A DNA stretch of 64,000 nucleotides. It comes from Escherichia coli O157:H7. Its GTDB lineage: Bacteria; Pseudomonadota; Gammaproteobacteria; Enterobacterales; Enterobacteriaceae. Position numbers: made by a program. Below are positions 13,601 to 15,307 of this stretch, piece after piece. Every line of letters starts with the position of its first letter. Position 1 is the first letter of the stretch. The stretch is taken from assembly GCF_013167455.1 (NCBI RefSeq), contig NZ_CP038328.1; one strand, 5' to 3'.

Positions 13601-15307
13601 AACATAAATGACTGAAAAACAAAGCCGACGTGCTTCGCGCGCAACTTTGCCCGCGCTTCTTCGTCCATATTATGTAGCGGTTGTCCCACCAGACTCACTT
13701 CGCCACTGCTGCCGTCATCCAGCCCGGCGAGGATCGCCAGCAAGGTTGACTTACCCGATCCCGACTCGCCCACCAGTGCGATGGTCTCGCCACGTTTGAC
13801 AACCAGCTCAACTCCGGTGAGGATGGAGAGTTCATGCTCCCCCTGACCGACGGACTTCTTAAGATGATGAACTTCAACAATGTTTTCCGCTGGCATTTGC
13901 CCTTCCTGTTTCTGGTCCTGTTAACCTTCCGTGCTGCCGCAGCGGACACGTTATTGATTCTGGGTGATAGCCTGAGCGCCGGGTATCGAATGTCTGCCAG
14001 CGCGGCCTGGCCTGCCTTGTTGAATGATAAGTGGCAGAGTAAAACGTCGGTAGTCAATGCCAGCATCAGCGGCGACACCTCGCAACAAGGGCTGGCGCGC
14101 CTTCCGGCTCTGCTGAAACAGCATCAGCCGCGTTGGGTGCTGGTTGAACTGGGCGGCAATGACGGTTTGCGTGGTTTTCAGCCACAGCAAACCGAGCAAA
14201 CGCTGCGCCAGATTTTGCAGGATGTCAAAGCCGCCAACGCTGAACCATTGTTAATGCAAATACGTCTGCCTGCAAACTATGGTCGCCGTTATAATGAAGC
14301 CTTTAGCGCCATTTACCCCAAACTCGCCAAAGAGTTTGATGTTCCGCTGCTGCCCTTTTTAATGGAAGAGGTCTACCTCAAGCCACAATGGATGCAGGAT
14401 GACGGTATTCATCCCAACCGCGACGCCCAGCCGTTTATTGCCGACTGGATGGCGAAGCAGTTGCAGCCTTTAGTAAATCATGACTCATAAAGCAACGGAG
14501 ATCCTGACAGGTAAAGTTATGCAAAAATCGGTCTTAATTACCGGATGTTCCAGTGGAATTGGCCTGGAAAGCGCGCTCGAATTAAAACGCCAGGGTTTTC
14601 ATGTGCTGGCAGGTTGCCGGAAACCGGATGATGTTGAGCGCATGAACAGCATGGGATTTACCGGCGTGTTGATCGATCTGGATTCACCAGAAAGTGTTGA
14701 TCGCGCAGCCGACGAGGTGATCGCCCTGACCGATAATTGTCTGTATGGGATCTTTAACAATGCCGGATTCGGCATGTATGGCCCCCTTTCCACCATCAGC
14801 CGTGCGCAGATGGAACAGCAGTTTTCCGCCAACTTTTTCGGCGCACACCAGCTCACCATGCGCCTGTTACCCGCGATGTTGCCGCACGGTGAAGGGCGTA
14901 TTGTGATGACCTCATCGGTGATGGGATTAATCTCCACACCGGGTCGTGGCGCTTACGCGGCCAGTAAATATGCGCTGGAGGCGTGGTCAGACGCGCTGCG
15001 CATGGAGCTGCGCCGCAGCGGAATTAAAGTCAGCCTGATCGAACCCGGTCCCATTCGTACTCGCTTCACCGACAACGTCAACCAGACGCAAAGTGATAAA
15101 CCAGTCGAAAATCCCGGCATCGCCGCCCGCTTTACGTTGGGACCGGAAGCGGTGGTGGACAAAGTACGCCATGCTTTTATTAGCGAGAAGCCGAAGATGC
15201 GCTATCCGGTAACGCTGGTGACCTGGGCGGTAATGGTGCTTAAGCGCCTGCTGCCGGGGCGCGTGATGGACAAAATATTGCAGGGGTGAGTTGAAGCGCG
15301 CGCTTAA

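What the first reader, a model, noticed from the sequence alone, without database searches (positions are those of the whole stretch)
13864..13896. Divergent tesA and ybbA coding regions overlap at their 5' ends
With tesA starting at MMNFNNVF (13864, plus strand) and ybbA at MPAENIVE (13896, minus strand), the first 11 codons of each gene overlap on opposite strands. Their promoters must then lie inside each other's coding sequence. This depends on both start-codon assignments being right.
Basis: inference. Interest (0 to 1): 0.3.

Follow-up and report, generated by a model that had tools for sequence, protein, structure and literature searches.

The report
Head-to-head overlap of tesA and ybbA
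Two E. coli genes on opposite strands, a periplasmic lipid hydrolase (tesA) and its ABC-transporter partner (ybbA), do share their first 30-33 bases, and each gene's promoter lies inside the other gene; this layout is rare but already annotated and published.

Summary
The window is E. coli, 100% identical here to O157:H7. ybbA starts at 13896 on the minus strand. tesA starts at 13864 in the curated K-12 annotation or at 13867 in RefSeq/PGAP. The coding sequences therefore overlap by 33 or 30 nt, in exact codon-on-codon antiparallel register.

Across 80 Enterobacteriaceae species the ybbA ATG and the second tesA ATG (13867) never change. The first tesA ATG is ACG in 16 species. The upstream ATG (13834) and the downstream TTG (13897) are not conserved. 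The overlap is therefore real, and 30 nt of it is conserved.

Synonymous sites in ybbA codons 1-34 are frozen in a pattern that traces a σ70 promoter for tesA, then its 5' UTR and start codon. The promoter is TTGACA, 17 nt, GAGGAT at 13796-13824.

Published K-12 data place the promoters inside the partner genes. They also show 125-789 nt of complementary transcription and RNase III-cut double-stranded RNA at this site. tesA-ybbA is already listed as a divergent excludon, and the operon overlap was noted in the 2025 YbbAP-TesA structure paper.

Verdict: real, rare, conserved, already known. The regulatory consequence has not been tested.

The parts
13867..14490 (+). tesA coding sequence from the conserved start codon. 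The K-12 annotation starts one codon earlier, at 13864. It encodes periplasmic thioesterase I / protease I / lysophospholipase L1.
   Evidence: ORF; annotations. PDB chains 1IVN and 9GE8_T match residues 27-208. ATG 13867 is present in 80/80 species; ATG 13864 in 64/80, with ACG in 16.
13864..13941 (+). TesA signal peptide coding region, 26 codons counted from 13864. The n-region is MMNFNNVFRWH, the h-region LPFLFLVLLTF, and the c-region RAAAA. Mature protein starts at Ala27 (13942).
   Evidence: Sequence. Deposited TesA chains begin at ADTLLILGDS, which is residue 27.
13210..13896 (-). ybbA coding sequence: the ATPase subunit of the YbbAP type VII ABC transporter.
   Evidence: ORF; annotations. 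It matches the YbbA portion (residues 15-242) of tagged PDB chain 9GE6_B over all 228 residues. The ATG is invariant in 80/80 species.
13864..13896 (.). Dual-coding segment: tesA codons 1-11 lie antiparallel to ybbA codons 11-1. Of this, 13867-13896 (30 nt) is the conserved core.
   Evidence: 25 of 33 columns are invariant across 80 species. The wobble of ybbA His10 is CAT in 74/74 species, never CAC. The wobble of TesA His11 is CAT in 74/74.
13796..13824 (+). Proposed proximal tesA promoter inside ybbA codons 24-34: -35 TTGACA (13796-13801), a 17-nt spacer, and -10 GAGGAT (13819-13824). The predicted transcription start is about 13831.
   Evidence: It is the only hit of 9/12 or better upstream of tesA. 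ybbA synonymous sites are frozen exactly under both hexamers and free in the spacer and beyond. The hexamers are also kept in the more distant locus L083. The Lybecker dsRNA MS-118 ends at U00096.2 519020, which is window 13833.
13843..13863 (+). tesA 5' UTR and ribosome-binding region. The Shine-Dalgarno match is weak (GGA) and the context is AU-rich and poorly structured. It lies inside ybbA codons 12-18.
   Evidence: ybbA wobble sites in codons 12, 13 and 15-18 are invariant or nearly so. SD duplex is only -3.2 kcal/mol, local folding is -7 to -9 kcal/mol, and AU content is 0.60-0.67.
13900..13907 (-). ybbA Shine-Dalgarno sequence AGGAAGGG, encoded inside tesA codons 13-15.
   Evidence: Duplex energy -7.0 kcal/mol, against a random mean of -2.1. 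tesA wobble sites are frozen only as far as about 13908-13914. A published RNase III duplex at 518931-518954 (window 13899-13922) covers this site.
13833..13958 (.). 125-bp double-stranded RNA 'MS-118, Divergent, tesA,ybbA' from the Lybecker et al. data set (U00096.2 518895-519020), as cross-referenced by Huang et al. 2020.
   Evidence: Coordinates are mapped with window = 532853 - U00096.2 position; the gene coordinates confirm the mapping.
13896..14169 (.). p19-captured dsRNA cluster 52, made of RNase III products (U00096.2 518684-518957), labelled 'tesA ybbA, 5' & Full'.
   Evidence: tesA shows 182-2396 RPM of p19-captured dsRNA, against 11-86 for ybbA and 9-25 for ybbO.
13675..14464 (.). 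Full extent of complementary transcription between the two divergent operons in K-12, from Conway et al. data: 789 nt, with the ybbAP operon running from P 518389 to T 522176.
   Evidence: The 518389 start agrees with the Cappable-seq + strand start at 518388.
14247..14276 (-). Weak promoter in the ybbA direction, TTTGCA-18-AACAAT, inside tesA. The predicted start at 14240 matches the Cappable-seq start at 518615 (window 14238). It is not conserved outside Escherichia.
   Evidence: The -10 T at 14247 is present in only 7/74 species.
13646..13673 (+). Possible distal tesA promoter, TTTGCC-16-TATTAT, inside ybbA. The predicted start is about 13680, near the Conway transcript end at window 13675. 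It is not conserved.
   Evidence: There is no wobble-site constraint in ybbA codons 71-90.

Best explanation
This is a genuine head-to-head overlap of two real genes. ybbA initiates at 13896 on the minus strand. tesA initiates at the conserved ATG at 13867, and possibly also at 13864 in E. coli. That leaves 30-33 nt coding for both the TesA signal-peptide n-region and the YbbA N-terminus, codon on codon in antiparallel.

No intergenic DNA exists, so each gene's expression signals sit inside the other gene:
- A σ70 promoter for tesA (TTGACA-17-GAGGAT, start about 13831-13833) and the tesA 5' UTR occupy ybbA codons 12-34.
- The ybbA Shine-Dalgarno sequence and its weak, lineage-specific promoters (5' ends at window 13958, 14238 and 14464) occupy tesA.

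The promoters therefore face each other, and the two mRNAs are complementary over 125-789 nt, including both ribosome-binding sites. In K-12 this produces dsRNA that RNase III cuts. The locus thus has the layout of a divergent 'excludon'. The likely effect is reciprocal dampening of the TesA hydrolase and its YbbAP transporter partner, through polymerase interference and RNase III cleavage.

Shown directly: the sequence geometry, the conservation, and the published transcript and dsRNA data. Inferred: which tesA ATG is used, the exact tesA transcription start, and any regulatory consequence.
For: - **Geometry and annotation:**
- **Start codons:** ybbA ATG 80/80; tesA second ATG 80/80; first ATG 64/80 (ACG in 16); codon -10 (13834) is ATG 42, GTG 27, CTG 9, TTG 2; codon 12 (13897) is TTG 66, TGG 6, CTG 4, GVG 4 read as GTG 4.
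- **Frozen synonymous sites:** the ybbA His10 codon is always CAT although CAC is synonymous. His21, opposite 13834, varies freely among CAT, CAC, CAG and CAA.
- **Wobble footprint in ybbA:** codons 1-5, 7-13 and 15-18 are frozen, 19-23 free, 24-29 frozen (-10), 30-31 free (spacer), 32-34 frozen (-35), and 35 onward free. Overall 18/40 versus 4/188 invariant, p = 2.5e-12.
- **Promoter scan:** TTGACA/17/GAGGAT is the best hit, with a predicted start at 13831. The published dsRNA ends at window 13833.
- **Published K-12 data:** ybbAP promoter at 518389 and a 789-nt overlap (Conway data); a 125-bp dsRNA (Lybecker data); p19 cluster 52 (all). Cappable-seq + strand starts at 518388 and 518615. RNase III duplexes lie across tesA, including one on the ybbA Shine-Dalgarno sequence. 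tesA is a dsRNA hot spot.
- **Prior description:** tesA-ybbA is listed among the 16 divergent excludons of MG1655. YbbA2-YbbP-TesA form a 2:1:1 complex, and the operon overlap was noted in that paper.
- **Wider conservation:** the head-to-head arrangement is kept in 10/10 distant homologue loci, with called start-to-start gaps of -33 to +64 nt and 192-298 nt between the catalytic GDS and Walker A codons.
Against: - No direct mapping of the tesA translation start was available (no Ribo-RET or Onc112 data reachable), so the choice between 13864 and 13867 rests on conservation.
- The upstream ATG at 13834 has the strongest Shine-Dalgarno match (-8.4 kcal/mol), and public gene calls use it in some records (218-aa forms).
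- The tesA-strand part of the Cappable-seq file was cut in the held copy. The tesA transcription start is therefore inferred from a dsRNA boundary and a motif.
- The proposed -10 hexamer matches only 3/6 positions.
- No ybbA promoter is conserved across genera.
- No experiment shows that either gene's expression changes when the partner's transcription is altered.
- Mutual exclusion would be odd for two subunits of one complex.
- Overlap of divergent 5' transcripts is common in E. coli (35% of divergent operons), so it need not be adaptive.
Confidence: 0.8

Rival explanations
1. tesA actually initiates at the TTG at 13897, directly abutting the ybbA start codon. In that case the coding sequences do not overlap and the annotated overlap is an artefact.
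For: Many automatic gene calls in public databases give 197-aa or 194-aa TesA proteins starting MPFLFL. TTG or GTG is present at this codon in 70/80 species.
Against: - The codon is TGG in 6 species and CTG in 4.
- There is no Shine-Dalgarno match (-1.5 kcal/mol).
- The resulting leader, M-PFLFLVLLTFRAAAA, would have no positively charged n-region.
- The A of ATG 13867 is frozen in 74/74 species, although the opposite-strand His codon could be CAC. That argues for a start codon there.
- The short calls are what a gene finder that penalises opposite-strand overlap would be expected to produce (my inference).
Confidence: 0.04
2. tesA initiates at the upstream ATG at 13834 (MLPLTDGLLK-MMNF...). 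This would give a 218-aa precursor and a 63-nt coding overlap.
For: It has the strongest Shine-Dalgarno match of all candidates (GGAG, -8.4 kcal/mol). The frame is open. Some database records use this start (218-aa forms). ATG, GTG or TTG is present in 71/80 species.
Against: - The NTG codon follows simply from His or Gln at YbbA residue 21. Its first base varies as freely as any synonymous site (A 39, G 24, C 9, T 2), and 9 species have CTG.
- The last G of GGAG (13828) is equally free.
- The conserved promoter footprint and the published dsRNA end (window 13833) put the mRNA 5' end 1-3 nt from this ATG. That leaves no Shine-Dalgarno sequence on the transcript.
- Local structure is strong (-17.8 kcal/mol).
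Confidence: 0.07
3. The overlap and the antisense transcription are real but functionally neutral. On this view they are a by-product of extreme compaction between two anciently linked operons. The frozen synonymous sites reflect only the need to keep tesA's promoter, RBS and start codon, not any cross-regulation.
For: - 35% of divergent E. coli operons overlap at their 5' ends.
- ybbA-direction promoters are weak (Cappable-seq scores 1.6-2.5) and not conserved across genera.
- In distant relatives the starts are separated by 0 to about 90 nt rather than overlapping, so the coding overlap itself is dispensable.
- The proteins form one complex, which fits co-expression better than exclusion.
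Against: - The very tight head-to-head arrangement is kept in every locus sampled, down to 41% TesA identity.
- tesA is among the strongest dsRNA sources in the K-12 data.
- RNase III cuts directly over the ybbA Shine-Dalgarno sequence, which must cost some ybbA expression.
Confidence: 0.4

Closest known systems
Divergent excludons: 5'-overlapping divergent operons processed by RNase III. The E. coli MG1655 set from ExcludonFinder (NAR 2025) already lists tesA-ybbA.
   Same: Adjacent divergent genes with complementary 5' transcript regions. dsRNA and RNase III products have been detected. The locus is itself one of the 16 published divergent excludons.
   Different: Classical excludons overlap in untranslated leaders across an intergenic region. 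Here there is no intergenic region, and the coding sequences themselves overlap. The defining reciprocal expression has not been shown for this pair, and the two products are partners in one complex rather than antagonists.
Other E. coli divergent loci that form 5'-overlap dsRNA, such as asd-yhgN (Huang et al., mBio 2020), and the overlapping divergent operons of Conway et al. 2014.
   Same: Face-to-face promoters, p19-captured RNase III duplexes, and listing in the same tables.
   Different: The overlap extent here (up to 789 nt, covering almost all of tesA) is far above the 168-nt average. It also includes both start codons and both ribosome-binding sites.
Overlapping gene pairs in prokaryote genomes (Huvet & Stumpf 2014 and earlier surveys).
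   Same: Two annotated genes share nucleotides. The overlap is conserved among relatives.
   Different: Nearly all known overlaps are co-directional and 1 or 4 nt long. Only 2 of 663 overlapping pairs in the E. coli reference are divergent, and overlaps in multiples of three are rare. This is a 30-33-nt divergent overlap in exact antiparallel codon register.
Fully embedded antisense genes, such as pop inside ompA in EHEC (PMC7103648).
   Same: Protein coding on both strands of the same DNA.
   Different: Those are long, young ORFs nested inside an established gene. Here two old, well-characterised genes share only their first 10-11 codons.

Membership tests
Divergent (head-to-head) overlapping coding-sequence pair | Both reading frames are real protein-coding genes. 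| tested here: met
   TesA matches PDB chains 1IVN and 9GE8_T, and YbbA matches 9GE6_B, at essentially 100% identity. K-12 and RefSeq annotate both genes.
Divergent (head-to-head) overlapping coding-sequence pair | The start codons are placed so that the two coding sequences share nucleotides. | tested here: met
   The invariant ATGs at 13896 (-) and 13867 (+) share 30 nt. The alternative starts are not conserved.
Divergent (head-to-head) overlapping coding-sequence pair | Translation starts have been mapped experimentally. | not testable with these tools
   No start-site profiling data were reachable. The TesA leader is cleaved, so structures only show the mature end at Ala27. The YbbA structures come from a tagged construct.
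Divergent excludon | Neighbouring genes are transcribed divergently and their transcripts overlap. | tested here: met
   Published data retrieved here show a 789-nt overlap (Conway data) and a 125-bp dsRNA (Lybecker data), both. ExcludonFinder found the overlap in at least 50% of 58 transcriptomes. Cappable-seq starts lie inside tesA.
Divergent excludon | The overlapping RNAs pair and are processed by RNase III. | tested here: met
   p19-captured 21-22-nt duplexes with 2-nt overhangs are found at five or more sites in tesA. Cluster 52 covers the locus, and tesA shows 182-2396 RPM.
Divergent excludon | Expression of the two sides is reciprocal (mutually exclusive). | not testable with these tools
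   No condition-resolved or single-cell expression values for this pair were accessible. No perturbation experiment was found in the literature searched.
Bidirectional back-to-back promoter (shared symmetrical -10, non-overlapping transcripts) | The two start sites lie back to back, so the transcripts do not overlap. | tested here: not met
   The tesA-direction 5' ends (window 13833 and 13675) lie to the left of the ybbA-direction 5' ends (13958, 14238 and 14464). The promoters therefore face each other and the transcripts are complementary.
σ70 promoter (proposed proximal tesA promoter) | -35 and -10 hexamers with a 16-18-nt spacer, and a transcript 5' end about 7 nt downstream. | tested here: inconclusive
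   The -35 is 6/6, the spacer 17 nt, and the -10 3/6 with A at position 2 and T at position 6. Both hexamers are frozen at ybbA synonymous sites. A dsRNA boundary lies at 13833. No direct start-site read on this strand was available, because the file was cut.
Sec-type signal peptide (TesA leader) | A positively charged n-region, a hydrophobic core, a small-residue cleavage motif, and a known mature N-terminus. | tested here: met
   MMNFNNVFRWH / LPFLFLVLLTF / RAAAA then ADTLL. Deposited mature chains start at Ala27. No signal-peptide predictor was available, so the regions were read by eye.

The most novel reading that the evidence does not exclude
The tight head-to-head layout, kept from Enterobacteriaceae out to relatives with 41% TesA identity, could be a selected control device for the YbbA2-YbbP-TesA machine. 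Face-to-face promoters and pairing of the two mRNAs over both ribosome-binding sites would tie the output of the hydrolase to that of its transporter. One possible effect is to cap free TesA relative to YbbAP, or to make the two respond in opposite directions to one signal. The promoter frozen into ybbA codons 24-34 would be the conserved half of that device.
Probability: 0.2. Interest if true: 0.5.

Novelty: already known. Interest (0 to 1): 0.25.

Why it matters
It is one of very few divergent coding overlaps in E. coli: 2 of 663 overlapping pairs in one survey. It joins a widely used enzyme gene, tesA, a mainstay of fatty-acid engineering, to the transporter now known to be its physical partner.

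There are practical consequences. Deleting, tagging or recoding either gene's 5' end alters the other gene's start, ribosome-binding site or promoter. Automatic annotation gives four different TesA N-termini.

Scientifically, it is a clean natural case for testing whether excludon-type antisense overlap regulates the subunits of a single complex. The facts themselves are already in the curated annotation and in several published data sets, so little here would surprise a specialist.

Tried and rejected
- **Strict promoter/terminator scan of 13500-14300.** No promoter hit. The proposed tesA promoter fails its rule of at least 4/6 per hexamer, so I wrote a relaxed scan.
- **Rfam at E ≤ 1 over 13000-15000.** Nothing found.
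- **Inverted repeats in 13780-13930.** None found.
- **Searches for transcription-start tables.** SMRT-Cappable-seq supplements do not list these genes. The Romero 2014 supplement has nothing. The Shigella M90T supplements give only expression counts. Thomason 2015 is not held. Conway 2014 and ExcludonFinder supplements are not held. The Cappable-seq GTF is cut after part of the + strand, so the tesA strand could not be read.
- **Literature on a characterised tesA promoter.** None found.
- **Bidirectional back-to-back promoter.** Considered and rejected, because the 5' ends face each other.
- **Starts at 13834 and 13897.** Considered and rejected on conservation, Shine-Dalgarno strength and leader-peptide grounds.
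- **A conserved proximal ybbA promoter.** I looked for a wobble-site footprint and found none beyond the Shine-Dalgarno region.
- **Table S1c of Huang et al.** tesA value pairs are 29.7/48.7, 27.2/18.0 and 27.4/31.7, against a second value of about 1 for neighbours. This probably means antisense RNA is as abundant as sense RNA. I did not read the column header, so I do not rely on it.
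Full report
**What is in the sequence**

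The window around 13864-13896 reads ...CTTAAG ATG ATG AAC TTC AAC AAT GTT TTC CGC TGG CAT TTG CCC.... On the + strand this is MMNFNNVFRWH-LPFLFL..., the tesA leader. On the minus strand, CAT at 13894-13896 is the ATG of MPAENIVEVHH..., which is ybbA (ORF 13210..13896, 228 aa).

The two frames sit codon on codon in antiparallel, so tesA codon i pairs with ybbA codon 12-i. Both tesA ATGs are read as His10 and His11 of YbbA. The ybbA ATG is read as His11 of TesA.

The region is 100% identical to E. coli O157:H7 genomes, and 5415 of 5426 complete E. coli genomes carry it. It differs from K-12 at 7 of 801 positions, none of them between 13793 and 13896.

**Comparison with annotation**

K-12 MG1655 annotates tesA (b0494) at 519139-519765 (-) and ybbA (b0495) at 519733-520419 (+). 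RefSeq/PGAP annotation of an identical O157:H7 sequence starts tesA at the second ATG, giving 207 aa and a 30-nt overlap.

Public protein collections hold four different TesA N-termini for this family, of 218, 208, 207 (204 in Salmonella) and 197 (194) residues. These correspond to starts at 13834, 13864, 13867 and 13897. The start therefore really is ambiguous to software.

**Which starts are real**

I fetched 80 loci from different Enterobacteriaceae species, with TesA identity of 86-100%, and compared the junction.

| Candidate start | Codon across 80 species |
|---|---|
| ybbA ATG (13896) | ATG 80 |
| tesA second ATG (13867) | ATG 80 |
| tesA first ATG (13864) | ATG 64, ACG 16 (Enterobacter, C. 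koseri, Kosakonia and others) |
| tesA codon at 13834 | ATG 42, GTG 27, CTG 9, TTG 2 |
| tesA codon at 13897 | TTG 66, TGG 6, CTG 4, GTG 4 |

The opposite-strand codons give an internal control.
- YbbA His10, opposite 13867, is CAT in 74/74 aligned species and never the synonymous CAC.
- YbbA His21, opposite 13834, drifts freely among CAT, CAC, CAG and CAA.
- TesA His11 is likewise always CAT, opposite the ybbA ATG.

ybbA has a good Shine-Dalgarno sequence (AGGAAGGG, -7.0 kcal/mol). It has no alternative in-frame start before the Walker A motif. The tesA ATGs have only a weak Shine-Dalgarno match (-3.2 kcal/mol) in an AU-rich, weakly folded context. The 13834 ATG has a strong match (-8.4 kcal/mol) but a strongly folded context. 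The TTG at 13897 has none.

The leader MMNFNNVFRWH / LPFLFLVLLTF / RAAAA has the expected signal-peptide parts, and deposited mature TesA chains begin at Ala27.

I conclude three things:
- ybbA starts at 13896.
- The conserved tesA start is 13867, and 13864 is an additional possibility in E. coli.
- The coding overlap is real, at 30-33 nt.

The choice between the two ATGs does not change the mature enzyme.

**Where the expression signals are**

ybbA synonymous (wobble) sites are strongly frozen in codons 1-40. Per ten codons, 7, 5, 3 and 3 are invariant, against 0-1 elsewhere. Overall that is 18/40 against 4/188, Fisher p = 2.5e-12. The pattern is structured:

| ybbA codons | Wobble sites | What lies on the + strand |
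|---|---|---|
| 32-34 | frozen | TTGACA, 13796-13801 |
| 30-31 | free | spacer |
| 24-29 | frozen | GAGGAT/AAGGAT, 13819-13824, and flanks |
| 19-23 | free | includes 13834 and its GGAG |
| 12-18 | mostly frozen | 13843-13863 |
| 1-11 | mostly frozen | the dual-coding segment itself |

This is the footprint expected for a σ70 promoter with a 17-nt spacer and a start near 13831, followed by a 5' UTR/RBS and a start codon. All of it is embedded in ybbA. A relaxed motif scan finds this same site as the single best hit upstream of tesA. The more distant locus L083 (69% TesA identity) keeps both hexamers.

On the tesA side the extra constraint stops at about 13908-13914, which is only the ybbA Shine-Dalgarno region. 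No conserved ybbA promoter is visible.

**Published experimental data for K-12**

Coordinates are mapped with window = 532853 - U00096.2 position. The gene coordinates check this mapping.

- **Cappable-seq.** It lists + strand (ybbA-direction) starts at 518388 and 518615 (window 14465 and 14238), and none closer to ybbA. Both are weak. My scan's only minus-strand hit predicts a start at 14240.
- **Huang et al. 2020 cluster table.** One row combines several data sets:
  - p19 dsRNA cluster 52 at 518684-518957, labelled 'tesA ybbA, 5' & Full';
  - Lybecker dsRNA MS-118, 'Divergent', 518895-519020, which is window 13958-13833;
  - the Conway et al. overlap 518389-519178 (789 nt), with the ybbAP operon running from P 518389 to T 522176.
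- **dsRNA abundance.** tesA yields 182-2396 RPM of p19-captured dsRNA, against 11-86 for ybbA.
- **RNase III duplexes.** Perfect 21-22-nt duplexes are listed at 518492-516, 518681-705, 518858-888 and 518931-954. The last one lies on the ybbA Shine-Dalgarno sequence.
- **ExcludonFinder (2025).** It lists tesA-ybbA among the 16 divergent excludons of MG1655.
[quoted passage not shown] It also shows that the products form a 2:1:1 YbbA:YbbP:TesA complex.

**How it most likely works**

The promoters face each other. tesA transcription begins inside ybbA and runs rightwards, with 5' ends at about 13833 and 13675. ybbAP transcription begins inside tesA and runs leftwards, with 5' ends at about 13958, 14238 and 14464.

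The mRNAs are therefore complementary over 125-789 nt, including both ribosome-binding sites and both start codons. Pairing and RNase III cleavage are documented.

Polymerase collision, and any net effect on protein levels, are inferences. No perturbation experiment was found.

**Evolutionary context**

Ten cluster representatives at 41-69% TesA identity all keep tesA head to head with an ABC ATPase plus FtsX-type permease. Called start-to-start gaps are -33, -2, -2, 0, +13, +17, +21, +25, +52 and +64 nt. One of the -2 calls is probably about +91 nt after correcting an over-long TesA call.

A caller-independent measure is the distance from the GDS glycine codon to the Walker A glycine codon. 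It is 192 nt in E. coli and 195-298 nt in the others.

The very tight arrangement is therefore ancient. The coding overlap itself was seen only in the Enterobacteriaceae loci and in L083.

**How unusual, and how new**

Transcript overlap of divergent operons is common: 136 of 388, averaging 168 nt. Divergent coding overlap is rare: 2 of 663 overlapping pairs in E. coli.

The feature is already in the curated annotation and in at least five published data sets or papers.

This analysis adds four points:
- The second ATG is the conserved tesA start.
- The 13834 and 13897 starts are unlikely.
- The proximal tesA promoter and leader can be read as a phylogenetic footprint in ybbA codons 12-34.
- ybbA-direction promoters are lineage-specific.

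Noticed in passing
window 14480-14490: The tesA stop codon (TAA, 14488-14490) lies 11 nt inside the next gene, ybbO, whose ATG is at 14480. This is a co-directional overlap. The strongest published ybbAP-direction transcription start (U00096.2 518388/9, window about 14464) sits just upstream of this junction on the other strand.
   Followed up: partly
window 13210-13213: ybbA and ybbP overlap by 4 nt (ATGA). This is the usual translational-coupling arrangement.
   Followed up: no
window 13720-13863 (+ strand frame of tesA); loci L008-L071: The tesA reading frame stays open for 11 to 259 codons upstream of the real start, antisense to ybbA. This 'shadow' frame probably explains the over-long TesA entries in public databases of 286-402 aa, such as P0121, P0039 and P0002.
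   Followed up: partly
window 13868, minus strand: An antisense-start data set cross-referenced by Huang et al. lists a + strand 5' end at U00096.2 518985 (sequence ATCATCTTAAGAAGTCCGTC). That is inside ybbA codon 10 and opposite the tesA start codons. I found no convincing promoter motif for it, so it may be a processing site or noise.
   Followed up: partly
L057 (CACSKA010000001.1): This record is titled 'Chryseobacterium sp. 18061', yet it carries an Enterobacteriaceae-type tesA-ybbA junction. Its TesA is 88% identical to E. coli, and its junction is identical to that of L062, 'Citrobacter sp. 18056'. The assembly looks mislabelled or contaminated.
   Followed up: no
L040 (Citrobacter amalonaticus JARDVN010000001.1), junction: There is an apparent 1-nt frameshift in the first codons of ybbA (32-nt 'overlap', disrupted MPAEN). 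It is probably an assembly error in a long-read genome rather than a real pseudogene.
   Followed up: no
window 14290-14295, + strand: A perfect TATAAT hexamer lies inside tesA (CGTTATAATGAAG), pointing towards ybbO. I did not check whether it drives an internal ybbO promoter.
   Followed up: no
window about 14362-14364 (TesA residue 167): The window's TesA has Leu where K-12 and all PDB chains have Phe (LPFLMEE against LPFFMEE). This is a lineage polymorphism shared with O157:H7.
   Followed up: no
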